Part shown: positions 824 to 10,139 of the stretch, piece after piece
Layout of the letters: each line of letters starts with the position of its first letter
How positions within the stretch are numbered: position 1 is the first letter of the stretch
Source of the DNA: a virus
Taxonomy: Duplodnaviria; Heunggongvirae; Uroviricota; Caudoviricetes
Virus record (IMG/VR): IMGVR_UViG_3300028991_000027
Span: 1 to 10,266 of that record
DNA: 10,266 nt
Direction: 5' to 3' (one strand)
Notes under the pieces: model-generated
What the model was told of the DNA's origin: nothing
The model's database searches: none
The model's input: the letters and a program-made list of their open reading frames with translations, nothing else
Made by a program: the position numbers and the translations under genes

Positions 824-905
824 CATATCCTGCTGTTTTAGCAAGCTGAAAGACCGGTATTCACCGCCACCAGCGCGTTTACTGTACTGACGCGATTTCA
901 GTCAT

Positions 906-928
906 AAAAAACCCGCCTGGCGGCGGGG
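906..928 (-). terminator. rho-independent terminator (tR'-like) closing a short transcript from the late promoter
   Basis: Minus strand reads CCCGCC-gcca-GGCGGG followed by TTTTTTAT (plus-strand stem arms 912-917 and 922-927, A-run 906-911). About 65 nt downstream of the putative late promoter. Confidence 0.6.
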
Positions 929-975
929 TGTAAAAAATCTTCTAACGTCAGGCATAAAACGCCCATCGTTAGGGG

Positions 976-1003
976 GATTTACCACAGATTCGGGAAAAAT
1001 CAA
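976..1003 (-). promoter_or_regulatory. putative late promoter PR' (with expected Q-utilisation region) just downstream of the Q-like gene
   Basis: Minus strand: -35 TTGATT (plus 998-1003), 16-nt spacer, extended -10 TGgTAAATC (plus 976-984). It begins 5 nt after the Q-like stop codon and is followed by the terminator at 906-928, as in lambda PR'-tR'. Confidence 0.4.
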
Positions 1004-1008
1004 CAAAG

Positions 1009-1830
1009 CTATCTGGTCACCTTTTTCAGTTGTTGTTCTGCCCATGCTTCTTCAATATCAAACTGCACCACCAGCGTATCGTAAAAACGTTTAACTGTTT
1101 TTTTCCATGTATCAAGAGATATGGCATCGGTTACATTACATATGGCATTAAATGCCTCCGTTGAAGGTAATCTTTCATAGCCACGCCCACCACAACGCTG
1201 ACAGTTTCTGAAAACCGGCACACCCTGTTTTTCCGACTCTTCACGATGAATGGCAACACCGCGCCCACGACAATCTTTACAGGCTGTGGAAACCTCCCCC
1301 TTTCCGCTACACTCCGGACAGGCAACTTTTACCACCTCCCTGACTTTTTTCCATTCCTCCCAGTAAGACGGATACACGCCTTTTGTGCACTTTGCCCATA
1401 CTGGCGGCTTACCATCCGGATACTGGATCTTGTTTGTAAAAATCTCGCTTTCAATAAATTTTTTTCCGTGACAGCAGGGGCACTGTTTTTTGCTCGCCGC
1501 GCTACGGGCATAATCTTCAAACGCATACGAAGCCATAATGCGCATCACTGCCGGTTTTATTTCTGCCGGGAGTTTTCTTAACGCCGCCACGCAATCACAC
1601 CGACTGAGTGCATATTCTGTCAGCAATTCTGTTGCCCGCTCTCTGTCATTCATACTAATGCCCATTTTCCCAAGGAACGCAGAAAACCCCATCTCAGCCC
1701 GATTCTGTGTCATGCCCTGCGCTGCCATCACATCAGTGATACTCAGCGCATCTTTTGACGTCGAGGCAGAGGCATCTGTCAGGCCGGGGGATTTTGGTGA
1801 ATAGTACTTCGGTAAATCTTCCAGTTTCAT
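1009..1830 (-). CDS. late-gene antiterminator Q-like protein (273 aa) with four DnaJ-type CxxCxGxG zinc-finger repeats
   Basis: Complete ORF. Lies between rusA (ATGA stop/start overlap at 1827-1830) and the PR'/tR'-like pair. Cys repeats CPCCHGKK, CPECSGKG, CKDCRGRG, CQRCGGRG at aa 117-217. The Q assignment is mainly positional. Confidence 0.55.
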   Translation of the reverse strand: MKLEDLPKYYSPKSPGLTDASASTSKDALSITDVMAAQGMTQNRAEMGFSAFLGKMGISMNDRERATELLTEYALSRCDCVAALRKLPAEIKPAVMRIMASYAFEDYARSAASKKQCPCCHGKKFIESEIFTNKIQYPDGKPPVWAKCTKGVYPSYWEEWKKVREVVKVACPECSGKGEVSTACKDCRGRGVAIHREESEKQGVPVFRNCQRCGGRGYERLPSTEAFNAICNVTDAISLDTWKKTVKRFYDTLVVQFDIEEAWAEQQLKKVTR

Positions 1831-2201
1831 TTTTGGGCCTGTCCTTCATGCGTTATTTGGTAAATCTTCACACCCAGTCGTCCACCAGATACTGGCCGAC
1901 CACGTACAATATTGATTTCATCAAACTGCTCATCGTCCATTAACAGCCCTGCATGCGTCAGCGCATCCAGCGGCGCTTTCAGGATATTGTCCAGGTCACG
2001 ACGGCGCTTATCCGGTGGCTCTGCAATAATCCTGATTACCAGCCTTCCGGACAGGCTTAATTTCAGCCGCTGCTGGCGAACAATAAGCGCCACAGCCCGG
2101 CGATAACGCTTTCCCTCCTCCGAGATAAAATATGTACTGCCACGACGACGCCAGTAGGTGTTCACCGTTGGCGGGTAAGGTAAAACCAAATCTATGGGCA
2201 T
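1827..2201 (-). CDS. rusA: RusA-family Holliday junction resolvase (124 aa)
   Basis: ORF track protein contains RRRDLDN and surrounding sequence recalled as typical of RusA. ATG at 2201 is preceded by GAGGTG; its stop overlaps the Q-like start (ATGA). Confidence 0.85.
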   Translation of the reverse strand: MPIDLVLPYPPTVNTYWRRRGSTYFISEEGKRYRRAVALIVRQQRLKLSLSGRLVIRIIAEPPDKRRRDLDNILKAPLDALTHAGLLMDDEQFDEINIVRGRPVSGGRLGVKIYQITHEGQAQK

Positions 2202-2213
2202 CAGTCACCTCTT

Positions 2214-3263
2214 TTACCCAAGCACGCCTGTTGCGAAGGCGTGATCAAGAAAATGAAAAATTAACTCAACCTGGGAGCCGTACTTTTTCTCAAACTCCAG
2301 CGGGTCAGCATGAAGTTCGTTGTGGTGCTCCCGGCACAACGGTAGTGTGAAAATATCGTGGGCCTTTGTTCCCATTCCGCCCTGCCCATGGCCAATCAGG
2401 TGATGCGGATCATCAGCTGGCTTTCCACAACATGCGCACGGCTGCGTCTTAACCCAGCGTGTGTACTTTTCATTAACCCAGCGACGACGTTTAGGCCGTT
2501 TCATGAAAGATTCCGGAGACTCCGGATCAACGGCGATGCTTACTACCGTCTTTTCCTGTGGCGTGGTTTGTGGCTGGTGGGCGTGAAGCGGTAGCGCTAT
2601 GTTTTTTGTGCGCTGCTTCAGGATGCCGGTGGCGGTCTGCTCTCCCGGTATGATGTCGCTCTCACGGTATACGGAGCGGATTTTTTCCACCGGTAATCCC
2701 AGCGAACGACGCAATACAGACCCCGGAAGCGCATCAGCCACCTGATTGCAGACCGCCCACCAGGATAATTCGGCCAGCGATAACTCCCTCTCCTGCGTGC
2801 CATTCATTGCGTGACGGATGACGTCAATCATCCAGGCAGCCAGATTCTGCTGAGCAAGTTGCTCCAGTGAATCAGATGTCTGCTCCCGCAACTGGTTGTC
2901 GCAGTGCCAGCACAACACCATCGCGCCGGTACCGTAACGGTGAATGACGGTTTCGCTGTGATGATAATCGCCATGTGGCCACTGGCAGGATTTCACTTGA
3001 CGTAATAACCAGTCAGACAGTGCACCAGCACCACCTGCAGCACGGATCACCCGCTCATCACTGAAAAATGGCAGTAATGATTTATCCTCCACCAGCGGCT
3101 GGCGAACAGTGGGAACCGCTCCGGATGGCAGCGCCCGCATGTTTTTCGGTTCCGGCTCCACCAGCACCCTGCCGCAATGAAAAACCGGCAGTGATTCGCG
3201 ACCGGGCTTAAGGACCACCAGCCCGAGCTCCGGTACCAGAACAGGTCGAAGTAATACCCGCAC
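2214..3263 (-). CDS. DUF968-family phage protein (YdfU-like, 349 aa) with C-terminal HNH-type motif
   Basis: GTG start at 3263 preceded by GGAGG at 5 nt. C-terminal CACCGKPADDPHHLIGHGQGG...LCREHHNELH resembles an HNH zinc-binding nuclease motif. Length matches the DUF968 proteins of E. coli cryptic prophages as recalled. Confidence 0.75.
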   Translation of the reverse strand: MRVLLRPVLVPELGLVVLKPGRESLPVFHCGRVLVEPEPKNMRALPSGAVPTVRQPLVEDKSLLPFFSDERVIRAAGGAGALSDWLLRQVKSCQWPHGDYHHSETVIHRYGTGAMVLCWHCDNQLREQTSDSLEQLAQQNLAAWMIDVIRHAMNGTQERELSLAELSWWAVCNQVADALPGSVLRRSLGLPVEKIRSVYRESDIIPGEQTATGILKQRTKNIALPLHAHQPQTTPQEKTVVSIAVDPESPESFMKRPKRRRWVNEKYTRWVKTQPCACCGKPADDPHHLIGHGQGGMGTKAHDIFTLPLCREHHNELHADPLEFEKKYGSQVELIFHFLDHAFATGVLG

Positions 3264-3264
3264 G

Positions 3265-3537
3265 TTACCTCCAGATGCGTTGCTGGAATGTGCGGGACGG
3301 ACGCGGAGGGCGTTCGGAATAAGGAAGCCTGACAGAGATTATCCAGTGACGATAATCGAGACTGAGGGCTTTCTTAACCTCGTATCCGCGCCTGCGGTAA
3401 CACTGAATCAGCCATTCGGCCTGTTCTTCAGTGCATGGGGGATGCAGGTACCAGTGGGTTTTAAATACGTACGAATGCCGCCCCCGCTTAATGGCCGGGA
3501 CGGCTTCAGAATTGTGGGATTTTATATGTTGCGCCAT
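3265..3537 (-). CDS. hypothetical nin-region protein (about 90 aa from ATG 3537; ORF track extends to a TTG at 3585)
   Basis: ORF 3265..3585. Its stop lies 1 nt before the DUF968 GTG start, suggesting coupling. The TTG at 3585 sits almost inside the upstream terminator T-tract, so the internal ATG at 3537 (MAQHIKSHNSEAV...) is preferred. No family recognised. Confidence 0.4.
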   Translation of the reverse strand: MAQHIKSHNSEAVPAIKRGRHSYVFKTHWYLHPPCTEEQAEWLIQCYRRRGYEVKKALSLDYRHWIISVRLPYSERPPRPSRTFQQRIWR

Positions 3538-3600
3538 CGCAGCAGGTGTCAGTTGTTCAGGCTGACGGCGCGAATTGTAAGGCAATACGCCGGAATGTAC

Positions 3601-3645: not shown

Positions 3646-3990
3646 CTATAATAATTTCAGAGTTTTTACATCCAGTTCAACACTGTTCAGGTCTTTATCA
3701 AGTTCCCCCTCAATTATTACCTTGTCTTTCGGAGAAACATTCTGCCCGGCCCATACACTTTTATCGATATCCGTGACAATGGTTCCGCTACTGTCGCGAA
3801 ACTCATAACGATCATCACCCAATTTTTTAACGATGTGCCCTTCAAGGATAACCCATGCCTCGTCCTTCTGTTCTTTTGCCTGCACTACTGTTGTTGAACG
3901 CTCTGCTTCAGACCCCAGAAAACCTCCCTGTTGTGCAAAAACGCCAAAAGACACGCAGGAAAAAAGGGCTGCGATTAATACTTTTTTCAT
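3646..3990 (-). CDS. YgiW/YdeI-family (BOF) OB-fold periplasmic protein with signal peptide (114 aa)
   Basis: Start taken at ATG 3990 (MKKVLIAALFSCVSFGVFAQQGGF...), preceded by GAGGA; the ORF-track N-terminal extension is not supported. QGGF, DDRYEFRDSSGTIVTDID and GELDKDLNSVELDVK match the YgiW/YdeI pattern as recalled. Flanked by its own terminator. Confidence 0.8.
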   Translation of the reverse strand: MKKVLIAALFSCVSFGVFAQQGGFLGSEAERSTTVVQAKEQKDEAWVILEGHIVKKLGDDRYEFRDSSGTIVTDIDKSVWAGQNVSPKDKVIIEGELDKDLNSVELDVKTLKLL

Positions 3991-4078
3991 TATCGTCCTC
4001 TTCAAGAAATTAACATGAACACTTGCATTGCAGCATATAAAATGCGGGTGCGTTGAGGATGCCTGACACATCAGAGGT

Positions 4079-4100
4079 GGCGAGGGATTTCTCCCTCGCC
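4079..4100 (-). terminator. stable GC hairpin at the 3' end of the hok transcript
   Basis: GGCGAGGGA-tttc-TCCCTCGCC, 8 nt past the hok stop codon. No clean U-tract on the minus strand, so it may be a 3' stabilising or fold-back element rather than an intrinsic terminator. Confidence 0.35.
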
Positions 4101-4107
4101 TGGTCTC

Positions 4108-4263
4108 TTACTTCTCAGATTCGTAGTCTACGAAGACAGCGACCTCCGTCTGGCCGGTTCGGATTCGTACCTCGCAGAGGTCTTTCCTCGTTACCAGTGC
4201 CGTCACTATGACGGTTAAACAGATGACGATCAGGGCGATTAACATCGCCTTTTGCTGCTTCAT
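4108..4263 (-). CDS. hok: Hok/Gef-family type I toxin (51 aa membrane peptide)
   Basis: Translated by hand from the minus strand: MKQQKAMLIALIVICLTVIVTALVTRKDLCEVRIRTGQTEVAVFVDYESEK. It is shorter than the ORF-track cutoff. Hydrophobic N-terminus and the TRKDLCEV...GQTEVA core match the Hok family. Confidence 0.9.
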   Translation of the reverse strand: MKQQKAMLIALIVICLTVIVTALVTRKDLCEVRIRTGQTEVAVFVDYESEK

Positions 4264-4321
4264 AGTCTGCTTCTCCTTGACCTTTCGGTCCGTAAGAGGC
4301 TAACCTACGTTTGTGAAGCAT
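4115..4321 (-). CDS. mok: mok-like overlapping reading frame (68 aa) upstream of and overlapping hok
   Basis: ORF 4115..4321 begins with ATG 58 nt upstream of hok and overlaps it in another frame, as mok does in hok/sok loci. The protein itself is low-complexity; the call is positional. Confidence 0.4.
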   Translation of the reverse strand: MLHKRRLASYGPKGQGEADYEAAKGDVNRPDRHLFNRHSDGTGNEERPLRGTNPNRPDGGRCLRRLRI

Positions 4322-4380
4322 AGATTGGGCCTCAGATTAATGTTAAGCGTCTTGCAGGACGCGTAATGTTAACTGGGGCT
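4290..4380 (+). ncRNA. sok: possible sok-like antisense RNA region (position inferred, boundaries not defined)
   Basis: In hok/sok loci the antisense RNA overlaps the mok start on the opposite strand. Here I find only a weak plus-strand promoter candidate (TTGACC 4277-4282, poor -10) and a small hairpin GCGTC-ttgcag-GACGC at 4347-4362. It may be degenerate. Confidence 0.2.
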
Positions 4381-4439
4381 TTTCTCTGTCTGCCTTACGG
4401 CGGCATGCCCGAGGCAGACAGCCTCAGGCACCCGCAGCA

Positions 4440-4467
4440 ATTCTACTTTACTCTCGTTTTACTGCAA
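4440..4467 (-). promoter_or_regulatory. putative sigma70 promoter for hok/mok mRNA
   Basis: Minus strand: TTGCAG (plus 4462-4467), 16-nt spacer, TAGAAT (plus 4440-4445). This gives a leader of roughly 110 nt before the mok-like ATG. Confidence 0.45.
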
Positions 4468-4571
4468 ACCTTTTATCCCGGGCGCATATTACCCGATATG
4501 GGAACTCACACATCGAAATGAATTCGCTTCCATTGCCCCCTCAATCACATAACCAGACACATAAAATGTAC

Positions 4572-4601
4572 TTGCCATCTGAAGAGACAATAATCTAAAC
4601 T
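4572..4601 (+). promoter_or_regulatory. putative promoter for the plus-strand DUF1640-like gene
   Basis: TTGCCA (4572-4577), 18-nt spacer, TAAACT (4596-4601), followed by SD AAGGA (4623-4627) 9 nt before the ATG at 4637. Confidence 0.3.
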
Positions 4602-4636
4602 CAGAAGATCCCTCAATAGCATAAGGAATTGATATT

Positions 4637-4924
4637 ATGGGTCACGTCTATTTTGACACATTAAAATTTGCCGAAGCACTGGAAAAAGCTGGCATGCCAG
4701 CTGAACAGGCGCGCGCCATTTCCTCCGCAATAAAAGATGCCCATGAGGCAATTGAAGTTGCAACTAAAAATGACCTTCACTACGCAAGCTCAGAACTTAA
4801 GCGCGATATTCTGTCAATTAATGAGAAAATTGACCACCTCATATTTCAAGTAACTTTTCGGTTAGGGGTAATAATTTCTATATGTATAGTAGTTGTATTT
4901 GCCATAATTAAAATGAATATGTAA
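4637..4924 (+). CDS. small coiled-coil protein with C-terminal transmembrane helix (DUF1640-like, 95 aa)
   Basis: Complete ORF with a good SD. Protein MGHVYFDTLKFAEALEKAGMPAEQARAISSAIKDAHEA... ends in the hydrophobic LGVIISICIVVVFAIIKM. Opposite strand to all neighbours, with its own terminator. Family name is from memory. Confidence 0.65.
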   Translation: MGHVYFDTLKFAEALEKAGMPAEQARAISSAIKDAHEAIEVATKNDLHYASSELKRDILSINEKIDHLIFQVTFRLGVIISICIVVVFAIIKMNM

Positions 4925-4937
4925 CAACCAGCCATAT

Positions 4938-4976
4938 AACGGGCTGATATTTATTATATCAGCCCGTTGTCTTTTT
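4938..4976 (+). terminator. rho-independent terminator after the DUF1640-like gene
   Basis: AACGGGCTGATAT-ttatt-ATATCAGCCCGTT followed by GTCTTTTT. The minus-strand copy lacks a U-tract. Confidence 0.7.
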
Positions 4977-5000
4977 AAATAAGACAAGGCGTAACAGTTG

Positions 5001-5456
5001 TCAAAGAAATATTAATTGCTTCATTCTGCATGACATTACCGCCCTTTCTGTCGCCCTCATGATATATTTAAGGTGTAGACACGCCTCCGCCATTCTGATA
5101 ATCGGGTCTTCTGAAGTCATCTTTTCTGGCGAATCGCAGTCAGCACCACATTCAGTAATGCGTTCATAATCAAAACGAGCGGTGATTTTATGTGCACCAA
5201 TCATTTGCGTAAGCGCATCTGTCAACTCTGCAATGCGCTTATCTTTGGCTTCCAACTCGCCCGGCAGCACCAGTGCTACCTTTAGATTAAAGGTAGCAAT
5301 GAAGTCCGCGTTATTTTTCAGAATATGGTGCACAATAAGTACACCATTGAGTTTTACCTTGTAACCTCGTGCGCCACAATGCGGTCTATATGAGCTCCAG
5401 TCTCCCCCACGTTGCTTTTTCTGAAGCGTCACGCATCTTCCGGTAATTAATTTCAA
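5001..5456 (-). CDS. hypothetical protein (up to 151 aa); last gene of the minus-strand operon before the moron island
   Basis: ORF 5001..5456. The start is a TTG overlapping the DUF4406 stop (TTGA), with AGGAGA 10 nt upstream; the first in-frame ATG is far downstream, so the true start is uncertain. Six Cys and an R-x6-H near the C-terminus (RMAEACLH). No family recognised. Confidence 0.5.
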   Translation of the reverse strand: MKLITGRCVTLQKKQRGGDWSSYRPHCGARGYKVKLNGVLIVHHILKNNADFIATFNLKVALVLPGELEAKDKRIAELTDALTQMIGAHKITARFDYERITECGADCDSPEKMTSEDPIIRMAEACLHLKYIMRATERAVMSCRMKQLIFL

Positions 5457-5752
5457 TCACTGGTTGTCTCCTGGAAAATAACTGCATGCCCCAATTTCTC
5501 CGCCAGTGCCAGCTCTGCCTTAGCGCCCGCTGACCGCTGCCAGCCTTTCAGCATGTAAATCGCATCCACACAACGAATCATTGCCATGCAAATATCCATG
5601 TAATGTGGCTGAGTCAGCCCGTCCGGAAGTACTGCCGGGTTTAAAACGGTATGCCCTTCCCGTTTCAGCGCTTCTTCCGCCTTGTGAAACGCATCACGGT
5701 TGAAATTTTCATATCCCGTCATCGGACCAGCGATATAAATTCTCACCCTCAC
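5453..5752 (-). CDS. DUF4406-family protein (nucleoside 2-deoxyribosyltransferase-like fold, 99 aa)
   Basis: GTG start preceded by AGGAGG at 8 nt. N-terminal RIYIAGPMTGYENFN...VLNP matches the remembered DUF4406 signature. Confidence 0.7.
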   Translation of the reverse strand: MRVRIYIAGPMTGYENFNRDAFHKAEEALKREGHTVLNPAVLPDGLTQPHYMDICMAMIRCVDAIYMLKGWQRSAGAKAELALAEKLGHAVIFQETTSD

Positions 5753-6003
5753 TCCATCACCTCCTGAAAATTACCCTGACAGAACGCCAGTACACGCTGC
5801 ATGACTTCGCTATTTCGGCACTCACAGCAAATTATGTTCTTATGCCTGTCATAGCGGCGTATTTCTCCGTCTGGTAACTTTCGAATCAATGTCTGGTCAG
5901 TTGTTTTCTCCGGTGTCTTACGCCATACGCGATACACCTGTTCAGATGCAAAAACACCGTATTTACCGGACATGTATAAATCGCCACAAGCCAGTACATC
6001 CAC
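5749..6003 (-). CDS. hypothetical ORF, possibly the C-terminal part of a frameshifted gene whose N-terminus is ORF 5886..6143
   Basis: ORF track. Its stop overlaps the DUF4406 GTG start (GTGA), but neither the GTG at 6003 nor the ATG at 5973 has a recognisable SD, and it overlaps ORF 5886..6158 by about 118 nt in another frame. Confidence 0.3.
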   Translation of the reverse strand: MDVLACGDLYMSGKYGVFASEQVYRVWRKTPEKTTDQTLIRKLPDGEIRRYDRHKNIICCECRNSEVMQRVLAFCQGNFQEVME

Positions 6004-6143
6004 AAGGCAACGTCTGACTGAATGCCAGCCTGTCCCGTCGCTCTCTCCAGTTGTGATATCGTCATGCGTTCATTTTTGCGTACCAACCCGATAATTCGGG
6101 CCTTCAGTTCTTCACGCTGTTCGTGTGTAAAAGGTTTCGCCAT
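5886..6143 (-). CDS. small hypothetical protein with HTH-like N-terminus (85 aa from ATG 6143)
   Basis: ATG at 6143 is preceded by GGAGG and follows the upstream stop by 15 nt. N-terminus MAKPFTHEQREELKARIIGLVRKNERMTISQLERATGQ looks like real protein; the C-terminal 40 aa are W/Y/C/H-rich and resemble out-of-frame translation. Confidence 0.4.
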   Translation of the reverse strand: MAKPFTHEQREELKARIIGLVRKNERMTISQLERATGQAGIQSDVALWMYWLVAIYTCPVNTVFLHLNRCIAYGVRHRRKQLTRH

Positions 6144-6158
6144 AAGCGCCTCCGGCAA

Positions 6159-6884
6159 TCACTTTTCCGACACAATACGACCGGATGAATCGACAATCTG
6201 CCGAACAATATCCCGGTGCTTGTTCAACTCCCGCAACGCGGCACAGACTCGTTCCCACTTCTGGACATCACTTTTCGCCCGGCGCAGCTCGCGGTTAGCC
6301 ACATGCAGCGATGGTAGAATCAGGTCATCTGCTTTCGTTTCGGTGACCGATGGCTGTAACTTCACAATGTCTTCCACGATTTCTGTTTTCATTTCTTCCT
6401 GTGTCGTCGTTTCCTGGACTGGTAACGCAACACCTGCTGGCTGAGGAAAGGCTTTACCATCGGTTTCCGCTACGGATGCCGCTTCCGGCTCTGCCGGTAA
6501 ATCAGCGCCCGGTATGCAGTAACGAAATTTACCGCCCTGATTCACGCGAATCAGACGCCCTTTGCTGATTGCCATTGCCAGCGATGAATTCGCCCGGCGG
6601 GAGGTAATTCCGAACATCAGTGCCAGTTCATCCGCCGTTTGTGGGCCATGTTGTTCAATCGCCTCTGTCAGCATTTGCGCTGTCACTTTCGGTACCGGTG
6701 ACACCGGTTCACTTTCACCAGCCTGAGTCAGCCACCACATCGACCCCTTGTTATCCGCTTCACCGCGGCGCTTCAGTTTCCACAGTTCGTTGACCGCCTC
6801 TTCACGGCTGATTCCAAGGCGCGATGCCACTACCTGTGAAGAGGCTTTTTTCAGTGCTTTCAGTGCGTCAAATACGGTTTCCAT
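6159..6884 (-). CDS. phage protein with two N-terminal winged-helix-like domains, acidic linker and C-terminal coiled coil (241 aa from ATG 6884)
   Basis: ORF 6159..6902; the ATG at 6884 with GGAGG upstream is preferred over the TTG at 6902. Two HTH-like segments ([27 protein letters not shown] and [28 protein letters not shown]). Sits directly after the DnaC-like gene. Function unknown. Confidence 0.6.
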
Positions 6885-6905
6885 TAAAACGTCCTCCGAC
6901 AAAAA

Positions 6906-7652
6906 TTACTTCACAACCCTCTGATTGCTGACATTTGGACGCCAGCTATCCCAGTTAAACGTCACCCATCGACCACCGTTCATGGTCATGCGGTCCATAA
7001 TCCTCTCACCGAGAAGCGTACTCATTGCGGCATGATTCAGGTTTGTTAACATCCCGACACTGCACAGTGATGCTGTCCGGCGATCAATTATCTGGTGCAA
7101 TACCACCTGCTCGTTTTTCGTCTCACGCTGAACGCCTATTTCATCCAGGACCAGCAAATCAACCCCGCAAAGCTCCTGTAAAAATTTTTCCCCGGACTGG
7201 CCGTTGTCGTAGCTGTCATGCAACACACTCATGACGTCAGACACGGTGACGATAATCACGCTGCTCCCCTTCGCCATCAGCCGGTTGCCCATCGCCGCTG
7301 CAAGGTGATTTTTCCCGGTGCCGGTTTTACCGCTGAACACAAAATTCGTGCACCCGGTCATCAGTTCGTCAGCGATGGATTTTGCCTGGCTCAGCGCGTG
7401 TTTTTGCCCGTCGTTCTGCACCTGATAATTCGCAAACGAGCATTTGCTGTGCAGAGGCTGGATGCCCGAACGATTCAGGATTTTTTCCACCCGCAACTGG
7501 CGATTCTGGCGGTTAATCTCCTCGCTGCGTTTTCGTCCTTCAGCAAGCTGCCATTCCCGCCACTCCTCCACCGTCCGGTACGGTGGAACCGCCCCCTGTG
7601 GTGCAAGTCTGCGAATACGTTCAAGAACCCCGGCTGCCGCAATGTTTTTCAT
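6906..7652 (-). CDS. DnaC-family helicase loader (phage replication protein P analogue, 248 aa)
   Basis: Walker A FVFSGKTGTGKNHLAAA, Walker B DLLVLDEIGVQ, and a C-terminus (MLTNLNHAAMSTLLGERIMDRM...FNWDSWRP) close to E. coli DnaC as recalled. ATG at 7652. Confidence 0.9.
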   Translation of the reverse strand: MKNIAAAGVLERIRRLAPQGAVPPYRTVEEWREWQLAEGRKRSEEINRQNRQLRVEKILNRSGIQPLHSKCSFANYQVQNDGQKHALSQAKSIADELMTGCTNFVFSGKTGTGKNHLAAAMGNRLMAKGSSVIIVTVSDVMSVLHDSYDNGQSGEKFLQELCGVDLLVLDEIGVQRETKNEQVVLHQIIDRRTASLCSVGMLTNLNHAAMSTLLGERIMDRMTMNGGRWVTFNWDSWRPNVSNQRVVK

Positions 7653-7658
7653 GCCACG

Positions 7659-8627
7659 TCACCCCCTGAATCCAGGCGGTATTTCAGTGTCCGGTTCAGA
7701 AATGTGATTCACGCAACGCTGCGCGGGCGAACGCCCCAGGCGGATAACCAGTTCATCCCATTTTTCCCGGAGTTTTGCCGGACTCATGATGTTTTTTACC
7801 CAGAACGAATCCCGCTGGACACGCCCAAACATTTCACAAATCTGCCGGTGACTACGTCCATCCAGCATACGCATCATGCGCACATCATTCGCCCAGGTCG
7901 TCCAGTTAGGTTCTCGGGGGCGTGACACCTCACCATCATCACTGGCGGCCTGTTCATACAACGCCACAACCCGTCCCCAAATCCACTGCGCACAGGCGAC
8001 ATCCTCACGGGTACCCCACTGTCGCTTCGGTACATTCCAGGTATGCGCATCCGGGTGTTTCTCCAGAAATCGCTCAACTGGTGATGATTGTTTTTCGTCC
8101 GGCAGTGAAACGTCCGGACAAGAAGATCTTTTATCTGACGGATCAGGTTTTAATACTGACGGATCGGGGTCAATCATCGCCCCCCTAATCGGCAGTTTTT
8201 TATCAACCGTTGATCCATCAAAATTTGACGGGTCAACCGTTGAGGGGTCAATATTTGACGGGTCAACTGTTAACGGGTCATTTTTTGCCGGGCTAATTTT
8301 TCTTTTCGGTTTATATGACTCACGCGCCGCCGCCGCAGCTGCTTCGAGTTTTTCCACATTAAGCCGATAGATATTGCTTACATTACGCCCACCGACCTTA
8401 CGCTCTTCCTTCGTCAGCCAGCCCTCTTTCGCCAGTTCTGCAATAGCCGATTTCACGGTGGATTCACTTCTTGCACCGATCTGACGCCGGATAGTTTCAA
8501 TGGCAGGCCATGACACGCCCTCGTCATTGCTGTAGTCTGCTAGACGGGCCATCACTGCCACCCGGGATAAGATCATGCCGGTGAAGGCGCATCCTTCCCA
8601 GACAAGACCATGAAGCTTGCTGCTCAT
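7659..8627 (-). CDS. replication initiator, lambda O-like (N-terminal winged-helix domain, repeat-encoded linker, C-terminal domain; 322 aa from ATG 8627)
   Basis: ORF 7659..8642; the ATG at 8627 preceded by GGGGG is preferred over the GTG at 8642. It lies immediately upstream of the DnaC-like gene, and the iteron repeats fall inside its linker (DPLTVDPSNIDPSTVDPSNFDGSTVD), as in lambda O. Confidence 0.75.
   Translation of the reverse strand: MSSKLHGLVWEGCAFTGMILSRVAVMARLADYSNDEGVSWPAIETIRRQIGARSESTVKSAIAELAKEGWLTKEERKVGGRNVSNIYRLNVEKLEAAAAAARESYKPKRKISPAKNDPLTVDPSNIDPSTVDPSNFDGSTVDKKLPIRGAMIDPDPSVLKPDPSDKRSSCPDVSLPDEKQSSPVERFLEKHPDAHTWNVPKRQWGTREDVACAQWIWGRVVALYEQAASDDGEVSRPREPNWTTWANDVRMMRMLDGRSHRQICEMFGRVQRDSFWVKNIMSPAKLREKWDELVIRLGRSPAQRCVNHISEPDTEIPPGFRG
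8137..8320. repeat. iteron-like direct repeats plus AT-rich tract: putative origin of replication inside the O-like gene
   Basis: A 20-bp repeat TTTGACGGGTCAAC(C/T)GTT(G/A)A at 8224-8243 and 8254-8273. The GGGTCA core recurs at about 15-bp spacing (around 8166, 8230, 8244, 8260, 8275), with GACGGATCA variants at 8137 and 8158. An AT-rich stretch follows at 8281-8320. Confidence 0.6.
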
Positions 8628-8649
8628 AAAACCCCCGAACACCGTGCTT

Positions 8650-9075
8650 TTAGTGCATCACCACAGCATTCCCTGCCGGGCCGCCGCGATTCATCTGGTC
8701 ATACAAAACAACCGCTGACGCAACAAAATCGTCGACATCCTTCACCAGCCGATCCCGCCGTTCGACGATCTCACGGTAATACTCAGAACTGTGGCTGCGC
8801 ATACGGGCCACCAGCAAAGGCGGCATCGCCTTTTCGATCGCTGGTAACAGAGCCTGAATTTTTTCAACAGCATCAGGGGTGTCTTTATCCAACCAACGGA
8901 AAATTTTCTGGGTATTACGGGCCAGGGCTTCCGGATGACTGTCGTCGTACAGTTCCGGGAACGTCATCCCCAGCTCGAAATACGCTTTGGTAATTTTCGC
9001 AGCCGGTACTTTTTCGCCGTCCGGATGCGCCCAGGCATTCATCGCCATGCGGATGTGCTCATGCTTGATTTTCAT
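8650..9075 (-). CDS. YdaT-family protein (141 aa), second gene of the cro-side operon
   Basis: Complete ORF beginning MKIKHEHI...; ATGA overlap with the cro-like stop. Family assignment is from remembered similarity to Rac YdaT. Confidence 0.65.
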   Translation of the reverse strand: MKIKHEHIRMAMNAWAHPDGEKVPAAKITKAYFELGMTFPELYDDSHPEALARNTQKIFRWLDKDTPDAVEKIQALLPAIEKAMPPLLVARMRSHSSEYYREIVERRDRLVKDVDDFVASAVVLYDQMNRGGPAGNAVVMH

Positions 9076-9299
9076 GAATCACTCTTCCTTTCGCTCTGAG
9101 TGGTATCCTTCTTTTTGTAAAGCTCTGGGTTCAAAGATAATTTTCCCTTGGAGTATGCAGCAGCTTCCGCAGCTCTCCCTTTCGGAACTATTTCACCGGG
9201 GCGCTTACGCCACATGTAAATAGCTTCGCGGGTTATCCCATAAAAATCAGCGACCCTCTGAACAGAGCCAAAAAACTGAACAAGTTCATCAACTCGCAT
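9072..9299 (-). CDS. Cro-like HTH regulator, YdaS family (75 aa)
   Basis: ATG at 9299 preceded by AGGAGG. HTH segment VADFYGITREAIYMWRKR. Divergent from the CI-like gene across the operator region. Confidence 0.75.
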   Translation of the reverse strand: MRVDELVQFFGSVQRVADFYGITREAIYMWRKRPGEIVPKGRAAEAAAYSKGKLSLNPELYKKKDTTQSERKSDS

Positions 9300-9312: not shown

Positions 9313-9379
9313 AATCTAAGTATTTTTAGATTACAGGATAATTTTTTTTAGGTCAATGCAATCTAAAATAATTTATATT
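9313..9379. promoter_or_regulatory. OR-like operator/promoter region between the cro-like and cI-like genes
   Basis: O1 AATCTAAgtatttTTAGATT (9313-9332) and O2 AATCTAAaataatTTATATT (9360-9379). Minus-strand PR candidate: -35 TTGACC (plus 9351-9356), 17-nt spacer, -10 TAATCT (plus 9328-9333) overlapping O1. Plus-strand PRM candidate: -10 TATATT (9374-9379) overlapping O2, with a poor -35. Confidence 0.6.
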
Positions 9380-9395: not shown

Positions 9396-10043
9396 ATGAT
9401 GGAAAGCCTTGGCATCAGGCTTAAGAAACTCAGAAAAGATAAGGGACTCACCCAAGTAGAACTGGGTAAGCTTTCAGGCGTGACCGGGGTTACTATAGGG
9501 TACTGGGAGAAAGATCTAAACGAACCCGGCAGCAAAGCTCTAAGTAAGTTAGCCCAAGCATTAGGAACTACTGAGTCCTATCTCCTGTATGGAGTATCGT
9601 CTCCTGAACTATCTTTTGTGCAGAGCAATCCAGGCACCAAGATCCCCTACTTTTCGTGGGGTGACGCGATTTCTTTCCTAATCTTAGAAGGAGAGAAAAC
9701 AATGGGAAATGTCGATAGGATCACCACATTCTTTGATGTAGTGGAAGGTGATTTTGCCGTTTCAATGCCTGATGACACTATGCATAACCCCTCAGGGTCG
9801 CCAAGTATCCCAGTTGGTGCCACTGTGATCCTAAGACCAGGAGAAAGTTATAAAAATGGCAGTATCGTCGCTGTAATAGTTCCAGATCCTCTTACAAATG
9901 AACCGTCTATGACTATAAAAAAATTAGTTATTGATGGAAAACTTGTGTATTTAAGCCCTCTCAATCCGCGCTATCAATCATCCTTGCTTACGCCAGAGTG
10001 TAAAATTGTTGCCGTAGCAAAAGGTGTACAGTTCAACCTATAA
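9396..10043 (+). CDS. CI-type prophage repressor (N-terminal HTH, C-terminal S24 LexA-like peptidase domain, 215 aa)
   Basis: HTH GLTQVELGKLSGVTGVTIGYWEKD. C-terminal domain contains candidate Ser and Lys motifs (GDFAVSM, IKKLVIDGKLVYLSPLNPRY). Divergent from the cro-like gene and flanked by operator-like sites on both sides. Confidence 0.85.
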   Translation: MMESLGIRLKKLRKDKGLTQVELGKLSGVTGVTIGYWEKDLNEPGSKALSKLAQALGTTESYLLYGVSSPELSFVQSNPGTKIPYFSWGDAISFLILEGEKTMGNVDRITTFFDVVEGDFAVSMPDDTMHNPSGSPSIPVGATVILRPGESYKNGSIVAVIVPDPLTNEPSMTIKKLVIDGKLVYLSPLNPRYQSSLLTPECKIVAVAKGVQFNL

Positions 10044-10064: not shown

Positions 10065-10092
10065 AAGGTCGGTTATGTCGACCTTTTTTTTA
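10065..10092 (+). terminator. rho-independent terminator after the cI-like gene
   Basis: AAGGTCG-gttatgt-CGACCTT followed by TTTTTTT, 22 nt after the stop codon. Confidence 0.65.
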
Positions 10093-10110
10093 AATTAATT
10101 TAGATTCCTC

Positions 10111-10139
10111 TTGACTATAAAACTAAATACTTTTAGATT
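10111..10139 (+). promoter_or_regulatory. PL-like promoter with OL-like operator, directed rightward out of the window
   Basis: -35 TTGACT (10111-10116), 17-nt spacer, -10 TAGATT (10134-10139). Operator AAACTAAatacttTTAGATT (10120-10139) matches the OR consensus at 6 of 7 and 7 of 7 half-site positions; another TTAGATT sits at 10100-10106. Confidence 0.5.

What the first reader, a model, noticed from the sequence alone, without database searches (positions are those of the whole stretch)
4572..4976. Convergent plus-strand membrane-anchored coiled-coil gene with private promoter and terminator
This is the only substantial plus-strand gene inside the minus-strand operon. The surrounding sequence and the 3' end of the gene look markedly AT-rich by eye, consistent with horizontal acquisition. 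The protein is 95 aa with a predicted helical N-terminal domain and a C-terminal transmembrane anchor. Its convergent orientation means early-operon read-through would generate antisense RNA against it, which could make its expression lysogeny-specific.
Basis: partly seen in the sequence, partly recalled or inferred. Interest (0 to 1): 0.45.

Follow-up and report, generated by a model that had tools for sequence, protein, structure and literature searches.

The report
Prophage moron encoding DUF1640 membrane protein
A small self-contained gene cassette (own promoter, gene, terminator) sits backwards inside the early operon of an E. coli lambda-like prophage and encodes a short membrane-anchored coiled-coil protein of the DUF1640/CCDC90 family, a large family with no known function in bacteria; the arrangement is real but is an ordinary kind of phage accessory gene.

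Summary
Window 4637-4924 (+) is a real 95-aa gene: dN/dS is 0.26 against a 77%-identical homologue. It has a sigma-70-like promoter (4572-4601), an AAGGA ribosome-binding site and a 13-bp terminator hairpin with a U-run (4938-4976). It is the lowest-GC stretch of the window (0.37 vs 0.50).

A homologous cassette in an unrelated context shares DNA only from about 4562 to 5010. That makes promoter, gene and terminator a portable unit, a classic "moron". It lies in the nin-region hotspot of a lambdoid prophage, between an Ea22-like gene and hok/sok.

The protein is a short prokaryotic member of DUF1640/CCDC90-like. It has a conserved FDTLKF...LEKAG...EQA head, the beta-layer motif VATKND, a heptad stalk and a C-terminal transmembrane helix. 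The inferred form is a tail-anchored trimer with a cytoplasmic head.

The family is large (7,791 representatives), linked to mobile elements and without a conserved partner gene. Its members often converge on the downstream gene.

The prophage repressor's operators are absent from the promoter. Expression in the lysogen and antisense damping on induction are therefore plausible, but neither was tested. Function remains inferred.

Verdict: new member of a known kind, modest interest.

The parts
4562..5010 (+). Portable cassette (moron): the extent of DNA homology to an unrelated-context homologue (L010). It is the lowest-GC stretch of the window.
   Evidence: blastn and alignment to L010: homology starts at about 4562 and ends at about 5010, at 83% identity. 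GC 0.367 against 0.496.
4572..4577 (+). -35 hexamer TTGCCA
   Evidence: Consensus scan. Position conserved as TTGCCA/TTGTCG in L010, L011, L015 and L017.
4596..4601 (+). -10 hexamer TAAACT (18-nt spacer)
   Evidence: Consensus scan. Conserved as TAAACT/TAAAAT in all five cassettes. No prophage repressor operator overlaps it.
4624..4628 (+). Shine-Dalgarno AAGGA, 8 nt before the ATG
   Evidence: Sequence. Invariant AAGGA in alignment A3.
4637..4924 (+). CDS, 95 aa, DUF1640/CCDC90-like short prokaryotic form
   Evidence: ORF list. Pfam PF07798, 26 bits. All 22 close relatives hit PF07798. A profile of the relatives hits PDB 6h9l and 6h9m. dN/dS 0.26 vs L010.
4637..4756 (+). Head, aa 1-40: two helices carrying the family's invariant residues F6 D7 T8 L9 K10 L15 E16 A18 G19 Q24
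   Evidence: Alignment A1. The head aligns to the CCDC90B head in 6h9m. AF2 helices 8-17 and 22 onward.
4757..4774 (+). Beta-layer motif VATKND (aa 41-46) at the start of the stalk
   Evidence: Matches [aliphatic]-A-T-K-[polar]-[DE], described for DUF1640 in PMC4786415. A42, K44 and D46 are invariant in A1.
4775..4852 (+). Heptad coiled-coil stalk, aa 47-72
   Evidence: The a/d register L47-S51-L54-I58-I61-I65-L68-V72 is 7/9 hydrophobic. Stalk length varies among relatives.
4853..4909 (+). C-terminal transmembrane helix, aa 73-91, followed by a 4-residue tail KMNM
   Evidence: Kyte-Doolittle 19-residue mean 2.69. 144 of 149 family ORFs have a C-terminal TM.
4938..4976 (+). Intrinsic terminator: 13-bp stem, 5-nt loop, then GUCUUUUU
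   Evidence: Scan. Fold -23.6 kcal/mol, z -6.4. On the minus strand the stem folds but has no U-tract. Homologous cassettes carry a CCAGCCC...GGGCTGG hairpin at the same place.
4108..4468 (-). Context: hok/sok type I toxin-antitoxin locus with its own promoter, divergent from the cassette
   Evidence: Pfam HOK_GEF 81 bits. Rfam sok 104 bits at 4261-4433. Promoter-like site 4468->4440.
5001..5456 (-). Context: Ea22-like early gene, convergent with the cassette. Most of it (about 5011-5420) belongs to the same rare mosaic segment.
   Evidence: Pfam Ead_Ea22 23 bits, below cut-off. RefSeq name in UTAK-6. Homology to other E. coli prophages resumes only at about 5417-5444.

Best explanation
The region is an autonomous accessory cassette (a 'moron') inserted backwards in the nin region of a lambdoid prophage.

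Shown:
- It is a real, selected 95-aa gene.
- The cassette has sharp, portable boundaries and the lowest GC in the window.
- Promoter hexamers and ribosome-binding site keep their positions in diverged cassettes.
- A strong plus-strand terminator follows the gene.
- The protein has the full DUF1640/CCDC90-like layout in miniature: conserved two-helix head, beta-layer motif VATKND, heptad stalk and C-terminal TM helix.

Inferred:
- The protein inserts as a tail-anchored protein in the inner membrane. The head and a stalk of about 4 nm lie in the cytoplasm, and it forms a homotrimer like the solved relatives.
- It is transcribed by host sigma-70 RNA polymerase independently of the phage repressor, so it is made in the lysogen.
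- After induction, pR-driven early transcription heading for Q runs antisense through it and should lower its expression.

Most likely mode of action (inference): a membrane-tethered adaptor. The conserved head captures or holds a partner at the inner membrane, giving the lysogen a membrane-level accessory trait. Interference with incoming phage is the most typical trait for morons of this kind. It is not an enzyme or a pore.
For: Gene reality:
- dN/dS is 0.26 (window vs L010) and 0.04 (L011 vs L015). Synonymous sites are saturated at 56% aa identity.

Cassette:
- Homology to L010, which lies in a PerC/TPR context, spans only about 4562-5010.
- The -35, -10 and SD are conserved in position in five cassettes.
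- Terminator. GC minimum.
- The gene occupies the same slot in prophages with two immunity types and two Q types. It is absent from other prophages that share the hok flank.

Family assignment:
- Pfam head match; 22 of 22 relatives match PF07798.
- Profile hits to 6h9l (E 6e-5) and to CCDC90B 6h9m (E 0.002, with the FDT head aligned).
- The beta-layer motif is defined for DUF1640 in PMC4786415.
- TM and heptads. AF2 helices.
- 125 of 149 relatives have the motif and 144 of 149 have the C-terminal TM.

Autonomy:
- There is no conserved neighbour family.
- The downstream gene is on the opposite strand in 54 of 81 dereplicated loci, against a 27% background.
- APSE-1 P47 and APSE-2 'H' are also backwards within early operons.

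Repressor independence:
- The operator AATCTAA-N6-TTAGATT occurs only at OR and OL.

Topology analogy:
- The yeast homologues Put6 and Put7 are matrix-facing membrane proteins (PMC7519068).
Against: - There is no transcript, protein or phenotype evidence of any kind.
- The promoter is a 9/12 consensus match with an 18-nt spacer, and such matches are near chance frequency in this region.
- The Pfam score (26 bits) is below the gathering cut-off (33.5) and covers only the head.
- RefSeq calls the protein 'hypothetical'.
- Trimerisation and topology are inferred from relatives, not tested. The monomer model gave no informative fold match.
- There is no hit to known defence families. PHROG matches are 'unknown function'. 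The exclusion or adaptor role is therefore analogy only.
- The orientation statistics rest on a crude longest-ORF gene caller.
Confidence: 0.6

Rival explanations
1. Lytic-cycle helper. The protein is made mainly during lytic growth or early after infection. It serves the phage itself at the membrane, for example by anchoring a replication, packaging or lysis-timing component. It would not be a lysogen trait.
For: The gene lies among early replication and nin genes. In APSE phages the homologues lie among DNA polymerase, helicase and antirepressor genes. A constitutive sigma-70 promoter would also fire during infection.
Against: The opposite orientation to the early operon makes it subject to antisense transcription exactly when early genes are on. 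Its own terminator and promoter, its low GC, and its rarity among otherwise near-identical prophages argue that it is dispensable for the phage cycle.
Confidence: 0.15
2. Membrane-damaging effector. The trimer or a higher oligomer of the single TM helix depolarises the membrane. It would act as an abortive-infection effector, a holin-like factor or a small toxin, with the head as sensor or gate.
For: It is a small, very hydrophobic single-pass protein next to another small membrane toxin, hok. Toxin-antitoxin genes (ParE, HigA-like) recur near relatives.
Against: No antitoxin gene or antisense RNA is detected in the cassette. There is no PADLOC hit. Conservation is concentrated in the soluble head rather than the TM. 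Eukaryotic relatives are scaffolds, not pores. The gene has an unregulated promoter, which a toxin would not tolerate.
Confidence: 0.1
3. Cis-acting element. The cassette matters chiefly as a convergent transcription unit plus hairpin that attenuates or delays early read-through towards hok, rusA and Q. The protein would be secondary.
For: The promoter converges on the pR operon. A stable hairpin (-26 kcal/mol) also forms in the minus-strand RNA.
Against: There is strong purifying selection on the protein. The protein family is conserved across Proteobacteria in many contexts. The minus-strand hairpin lacks a U-tract and is not called as a terminator.
Confidence: 0.05
4. Spurious ORF in an AT-rich spacer.
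For: RefSeq labels it 'hypothetical protein'. The Pfam score is below cut-off.
Against: dN/dS is 0.04-0.26. There are 7,791 family representatives. Domain layout and motifs are conserved.
Confidence: 0.02

Closest known systems
CCDC90B / MCUR1 (Pfam PF07798, DUF1640/CCDC90-like; PDB 6H9M, and the prokaryotic homologue 6H9L)
   Same: The conserved N-terminal 'FDT...' head, the [aliphatic]-A-T-K-x-[DE] beta-layer at the start of the stalk, the coiled-coil stalk and the C-terminal TM anchor are all present. A profile of the window protein's relatives hits both PDB entries.
   Different: It is much shorter: 95 aa against a 175-position Pfam model, with a stalk of about 26 residues. It has no targeting sequence. 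It is encoded on a prophage as a solo gene. It scores below Pfam's gathering cut-off. The eukaryotic roles (MCU regulation, proline and amino-acid metabolism scaffold) cannot be transferred.
Lambdoid-phage morons expressed from the prophage, e.g. lambda bor and HK97 gp15 (from my own knowledge of Juhala/Hendrix 2000 and Cumby 2012, not checked here)
   Same: A single gene with its own promoter and terminator, deviant base composition, insertion between conserved phage genes, and (as for bor) orientation opposite to the surrounding operon. HK97 gp15 is a small inner-membrane protein that blocks phage DNA entry.
   Different: There is no sequence relationship. PHROG matches are to families of unknown function. 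Expression in lysogens and any exclusion phenotype are untested. The location is the early/nin region rather than the late region.
E. coli C-tail-anchored coiled-coil proteins ElaB/YqjD/YgaM (DUF883) (from my own knowledge)
   Same: A cytoplasmic helical or coiled-coil N-terminal part with a single C-terminal TM helix and almost no periplasmic tail.
   Different: It belongs to a different family; no DUF883 hit appeared in the Pfam scan. The beta-layer and FDT head are specific to DUF1640. The ribosome-binding role of ElaB/YqjD was not tested for this protein.
Hok/Gef (the neighbouring gene)
   Same: A small membrane protein on the same prophage hotspot with its own promoter.
   Different: Hok is 51 aa with an N-terminal TM and an antisense RNA antidote. 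ORF95 has a C-terminal TM, a conserved soluble head and no detected antisense regulator.

Membership tests
Pfam PF07798 CCDC90-like (DUF1640) | Whole-protein HMM score at or above the gathering cut-off (33.5 bits) | tested here: not met
   26 bits, E 9.5e-6, aligned only to model positions 1-39 of 175. The short stalk cannot fill the model. All 22 close relatives match at E <= 1e-3, and one source names the identical protein DUF1640.
Pfam PF07798 CCDC90-like (DUF1640) | Conserved N-terminal head (FDT...LE.xG...QA) | tested here: met
   F6 D7 T8 L9 K10 L15 E16 A18 G19 Q24 are invariant in A1. The head aligns to the CCDC90B head in 6h9m.
Pfam PF07798 CCDC90-like (DUF1640) | Beta-layer motif [aliphatic]-A-T-K-[polar]-[DE] at the start of the stalk (Hartmann et al. 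2016) | tested here: met
   VATKND at aa 41-46. Motif definition from PMC4786415. Present in 125 of 149 relatives.
Pfam PF07798 CCDC90-like (DUF1640) | Coiled-coil stalk followed by a C-terminal transmembrane anchor | tested here: met
   Heptad register L47-V72 and KD 2.69 at aa 73-91. Continuous helix 22-94 in the AF2 model.
Pfam PF07798 CCDC90-like (DUF1640) | Homotrimeric assembly | not testable with these tools
   Only a monomer could be modelled. Trimer inferred from the trimeric beta-layer structures described in PMC4786415 and from the sequence match to 6h9l and 6h9m, each deposited with three chains.
Phage moron (Hendrix/Juhala definition, from my own knowledge) | Own promoter upstream of the gene | tested here: inconclusive
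   A 9/12 consensus site, with hexamers and SD conserved in position across five cassettes. No transcript mapping.
Phage moron (Hendrix/Juhala definition, from my own knowledge) | Own factor-independent terminator downstream | tested here: met
   13-bp stem plus U-run, z -6.4. Hairpins at the same place in L010, L011 and L015.
Phage moron (Hendrix/Juhala definition, from my own knowledge) | Present or absent as a unit between genes that are otherwise neighbours in related phages | tested here: met
   Cassette-only homology to L010. Related prophages share the hok flank up to 4479 but lack the cassette. It occurs in 1 of 5,426 complete E. coli genomes. Caveat: in this window it is part of a larger rare mosaic segment, about 4480-5420.
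Phage moron (Hendrix/Juhala definition, from my own knowledge) | Base composition different from the flanks | tested here: met
   GC 0.367 vs 0.496, the lowest in the window.
Phage moron (Hendrix/Juhala definition, from my own knowledge) | Expressed from the repressed prophage | not testable with these tools
   Indirect only: no repressor operator at the promoter.
Known anti-phage defence systems (PADLOC-DB 2.0) | Match to a defence-protein model | tested here: not met
   No family at E <= 0.01.
Type I toxin (Hok/Gef-like) with antisense RNA | Toxin family match and a cognate antisense RNA | tested here: not met
   No HOK_GEF match for ORF95. Rfam finds sok only at 4261-4433, belonging to hok.

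The most novel reading that the evidence does not exclude
Phage- and plasmid-borne short DUF1640 proteins could be a widespread class of lysogen-expressed, tail-anchored trimeric adaptors. They would control a host inner-membrane channel or transporter, or block phage DNA entry. This would be the prokaryotic counterpart of the way MCUR1/CCDC90B scaffold membrane complexes in mitochondria. The family's tendency to sit as a backwards, self-terminated unit would then reflect selection for expression that switches off on induction.
Probability: 0.12. Interest if true: 0.6.

Novelty: new member of a known kind. Interest (0 to 1): 0.33.

Why it matters
On its own the cassette is a routine prophage accessory gene. 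It gains some value for two reasons.

First, DUF1640/CCDC90-like is a very large family: 7,791 50%-identity representatives were found here. Its mitochondrial members (MCUR1, CCDC90B, Put6/7) are studied intensively, but its prokaryotic members have no assigned function.

Second, this 95-aa version sits in a genetically tractable E. coli prophage. It is cleanly delimited, has its own promoter and has no partner gene. That makes it a convenient minimal model for asking what the conserved head binds, and whether the family gives lysogens a phage-exclusion or membrane phenotype.

Tried and rejected
- Foldseek of the AF2 monomer against the PDB gave nothing below E = 2. A helical hairpin plus one long helix is uninformative.
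- Single-sequence search of PDB sequences gave only marginal hits. The profile search was needed.
- NCBIfam gave only a weak, sub-threshold match to a copper-uptake-associated domain (E 0.0024, 17.8 vs 50 bits). I rejected it as noise.
- PADLOC gave no hit. PHROGs gave two families of unknown function.
- Search for a conserved partner gene. All-vs-all clustering of neighbours and a Pfam scan of 141 immediate neighbours from dereplicated loci found only tandem paralogues. Beyond those there was a scatter of mobile-element genes: integrase, KilA-N/Bro-N/Rha antirepressors, ParE, HTH, Zot and tail chaperone. No family occurred in more than 3 of the 141.
- Prophage repressor control. The operator consensus AATCTAA-N6-TTAGATT was derived from the cI/cro intergenic region and searched with up to 3 mismatches. 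It occurs only at OR and OL. The AATCTAA heptamer inside the ORF95 -10 region is a lone half-site, which is expected by chance.
- Rfam found no RNA family in the cassette.
- Inverted and direct repeats around the promoter gave only one 15-nt two-copy direct repeat of doubtful meaning.
- Literature search found no experimental work on a bacterial or phage DUF1640 protein. The key structural paper (Adlakha et al. 2019, Structure) is not in the library.

Full report
**What the window is.** The window is the immunity, replication and nin region of a lambdoid E. coli prophage. It is 99-100% identical over most of its length to a prophage of strain UTAK-6.

Genes, read from right to left:

| Feature | Coordinates | Strand |
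|---|---|---|
| cI-like S24 repressor | 9396-10043 | + |
| Cro | 9072-9299 | - |
| YdaT-like | 8650-9075 | - |
| HTH replication initiator | 7659-8642 | - |
| DnaC/IstB-like loader | 6906-7652 | - |
| DUF1627 | 6159-6902 | - |
| DUF977 | 5749-6003 (truncated ORF) | - |
| DUF4406 | 5453-5752 | - |
| Ea22-like gene | 5001-5456 | - |
| ORF under study | 4637-4924 | + |
| hok/sok | 4108-4433 | - |
| YgiW/BOF OB-fold protein | 3646-3993 | - |
| small ORF | 3265-3585 | - |
| DUF968 | 2214-3263 | - |
| RusA | 1827-2201 | - |
| antiterminator Q | 1009-1830 | - |

Sources. Every protein-coding gene between cro and Q is on the minus strand except the ORF in question.

**Checking the observation.** The ORF is 95 aa with an ATG at 4637, preceded by AAGGA at 4624-4628.

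- Promoter. The scan places a sigma-70-like site at 4572-4601 (TTGCCA, 18 nt, TAAACT). This is a 9/12 match, and the region holds 5 such sites against 3.0 +/- 1.7 in shuffles, so it proves little alone.
- Terminator. A perfect 13-bp stem with a 5-nt loop at 4938-4968 is followed by GUCUUUUU. It folds at -23.6 kcal/mol with z = -6.4.
- Base composition. GC is 0.367 over 4562-5010 against 0.496 for the window. This is the minimum of all same-length sliding windows.
- Protein features. The C-terminal 19 residues before the final KMNM have a Kyte-Doolittle mean of 2.69. Residues 47-72 show a clean heptad pattern. The AlphaFold2 monomer (pLDDT 83) is a short helix 8-17, a turn and one long helix 22-94.

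Its coordinates run from the -35 hexamer to the last U of the terminator.

**Is it a real gene?** Yes.

- A 77%-identical homologue (P0002, locus L010) gives dN/dS = 0.26.
- Two versions of a 56%-identical E. coli variant (L011 vs L015) give dN/dS = 0.04.
- Between the window gene and that variant, synonymous sites are saturated (pS 0.85-0.88) while pN is 0.25.

**Is it an autonomous, horizontally moved unit?** The strongest evidence is comparative.

- L010 is a metagenomic contig in which the homologue lies next to a TPR protein and PerC, with no other similarity to the window. It shares DNA with the window only from about 4562 to about 5010. That is from 10 nt upstream of the -35 hexamer to about 35 nt past the terminator.
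- Within this block the promoter and 5'-UTR are at least as conserved as the coding sequence.
- In an alignment of five cassettes spanning 56-100% protein identity, the -35, the -10 and the Shine-Dalgarno keep their positions while the spacer and upstream DNA diverge. Each cassette has a CCAGCC...GGCTGG-type hairpin right after the stop codon.
- Among 5,426 complete E. coli genomes only one carries this cassette, and only one carries the 56% variant.
- Thousands of genomes share the adjacent hok locus. In those, homology stops at 4479 and a different gene follows.
- The cassette is retained at the same slot in prophages with two different immunity regions and two different Q genes.
- In this window it is embedded in a larger rare mosaic segment (about 4480-5420) that also contains most of the Ea22-like gene.

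This is the textbook anatomy of a phage moron.

**What the protein is.**

- Pfam gives CCDC90-like/DUF1640 at 26 bits, below the 33.5-bit cut-off. The match covers only the head.
- The assignment is nevertheless secure. The identical protein is named DUF1640 by one source, and all 22 close relatives match PF07798.
- A profile of those relatives hits two solved structures. One is 6h9l, a prokaryotic 'uncharacterized protein' with repeated ATKEDIE beta-layer units (E 6e-5). The other is 6h9m, human CCDC90B (E 0.002), with the FDT head aligned residue for residue.
- Residues 41-46, VATKND, fit the beta-layer consensus [aliphatic]-A-T-K-[polar]-[DE]. [quoted passage not shown] In their structures the beta-layer forms in trimers (PMC4786415).
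- Invariant positions in the alignment are concentrated in the head (F6 D7 T8 L9 K10 L15 E16 A18 G19 Q24) and the beta-layer (A42 K44 D46), plus G77 in the TM helix. The stalk varies in length.

I infer a tail-anchored homotrimer with the head and a stalk of about 4 nm in the cytoplasm. There is no signal peptide, the N-terminal domain is about 70 residues and acidic, and only four residues follow the TM. The matrix-facing topology reported for the yeast homologues Put6/Put7 is consistent with this (PMC7519068). Trimerisation and topology are not tested.

**The family at large.**

- A profile search of 1.84 billion representatives finds 7,791 proteins at E <= 1e-3 and 1,013 at E <= 1e-10. Most of the best 150 are 80-130 aa.
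- Scans recovered 57 viral loci, and 318 genomic loci of which 80 were fetched. They span Gamma-, Beta- and Deltaproteobacteria and magnetotactic bacteria. Several copies occur in insect symbionts (Sodalis, Arsenophonus, Hamiltonella phage APSE) and in Erwinia tracheiphila.
- Of 149 family ORFs, 125 have the beta-layer motif and 144 a C-terminal TM.
- No partner gene is conserved. The commonest neighbours are tandem paralogues. After those comes a scatter of mobile-element genes: Rha/KilA-N/Bro-N antirepressors, integrases, ParE/HigA, tail genes and Zot. No family occurs in more than 3 of 141 immediate neighbours of dereplicated loci.
- With a crude ORF caller, the downstream neighbour is on the opposite strand in 54 of 81 dereplicated loci, against 27% for other adjacent pairs in the same loci. 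Both neighbours are opposite in 26 of 81.
- APSE-1 P47 and APSE-2 'H' are likewise backwards inside early operons.

The solo, self-terminated, often convergent arrangement is therefore a family habit and not a peculiarity of this window.

**How it most likely works.**

- Shown: the cassette anatomy and the protein layout.
- Inferred: host RNA polymerase transcribes it from its own promoter regardless of the prophage repressor. The repressor's operator (AATCTAA-N6-TTAGATT) occurs at OR (9313-9332, 9360-9379) and OL (10087-10106, 10120-10139), and nowhere else within three mismatches.
- After induction, transcripts from pR must cross 4924-4637 in antisense to reach Q. The minus-strand hairpin has no U-tract and is not called as a terminator.
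- The head is the most conserved part, the stalk is a variable spacer and there is no enzyme-like feature. The most economical mechanism is therefore a membrane-tethered trimeric adaptor that binds a partner at the inner membrane.
- In a prophage moron the usual pay-off is protection of the lysogen, such as exclusion of other phages, or altered membrane physiology. This last step is analogy only (lambda bor and HK97 gp15, from my own knowledge). It has no support from PADLOC or PHROGs.

**Rivals.**

- A lytic-cycle role is possible but fits poorly with the backwards orientation and dispensability.
- A toxin or pore role fits the neighbourhood (hok). It does not fit the head-centred conservation, the unregulated promoter or the lack of an antidote.
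- A purely cis-acting role is contradicted by strong selection on the protein.
- A spurious ORF is excluded.

**Comparison and novelty.**

- By architecture and profile similarity the protein is a member of DUF1640/CCDC90-like, although it fails Pfam's whole-protein threshold because it is so short.
- The cassette meets four of the five moron criteria that sequence can address. Expression in the lysogen cannot be tested here.
- Nothing about it is categorically new. It is a new, rare member of two known kinds at once.
- No experimental work on any bacterial or phage member was found in the library.
- The modest interest lies in its use as a minimal, tractable model for a very large family of unknown prokaryotic function.

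**Verdict.** Novelty: new member of a known kind. Interest: 0.33.

Noticed in passing
window 4108-4468 (-): Complete hok/sok type I toxin-antitoxin locus. It comprises Hok (51 aa, 4108-4263), an overlapping mok-like ORF (4115-4321), an Rfam sok match (104 bits, 4261-4433) and a promoter-like site at 4468->4440. It is divergent from the ORF95 promoter, about 105 bp away.
   Followed up: partly
window 4366-4521 (+): Gene callers in related assemblies call this 51-aa plus-strand ORF. It lies antisense over the hok mRNA leader and has no family match on record, so it is probably a spurious call.
   Followed up: no
window 9313-9379 and 10087-10139: Four copies of a 20-bp palindromic operator, AATCTAA-N6-TTAGATT. 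There are two between cI and cro (OR) and two downstream of cI (OL). Observed 4 against 0.4 expected by chance.
   Followed up: partly
window ~6033 (DUF977 gene, 5749-6158, -): The window lacks one nucleotide relative to UTAK-6 and L006, where DUF977 is an intact 131-aa gene. Here the reading frame is split into 84-aa and 90-aa ORFs. The same frameshift is present in L004, L005 and L008.
   Followed up: partly
window 844-1873: Mosaic break. The window's Q is a 273-aa Antiterm (PF03589) protein with a DnaJ-type CXXCXGXG zinc finger. The otherwise near-identical relatives carry a PF06323 Q.
   Followed up: no
L015/L017/L018/L024, about 3725-4288: In the 56%-identical E. coli variant, the DUF1640 cassette lies back-to-back with a C4 antisense RNA / isrK / c4-a1b1 module and an antirepressor gene. 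hok/sok lies further on. Antirepressor-type genes (Rha, KilA-N, Bro-N) are the commonest non-paralogous neighbours of the family, but occur in only about 15 of 135 loci.
   Followed up: partly
window 4538-4552 and 4610-4624: A 15-nt direct repeat CCCTCAATnnCATAA (87% identity) brackets the ORF95 promoter. One copy lies just outside the cassette boundary and the other in the 5'-UTR. It could be a recombination scar or chance.
   Followed up: no
window 3646-3993 (-): A YgiW/BOF OB-fold protein with an apparent signal peptide, GC 0.425. It is another accessory-type gene in the same hotspot, directly downstream of hok.
   Followed up: no
L076, L079, L090, L133 and other Burkholderiales loci: In 11 betaproteobacterial loci, the DUF1640 gene has a type IV pilin gene upstream. 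In 9 of the 11 the pilin gene is on the opposite strand. A conserved set of genes lies downstream. This suggests a chromosomal, non-phage lineage of the family.
   Followed up: no
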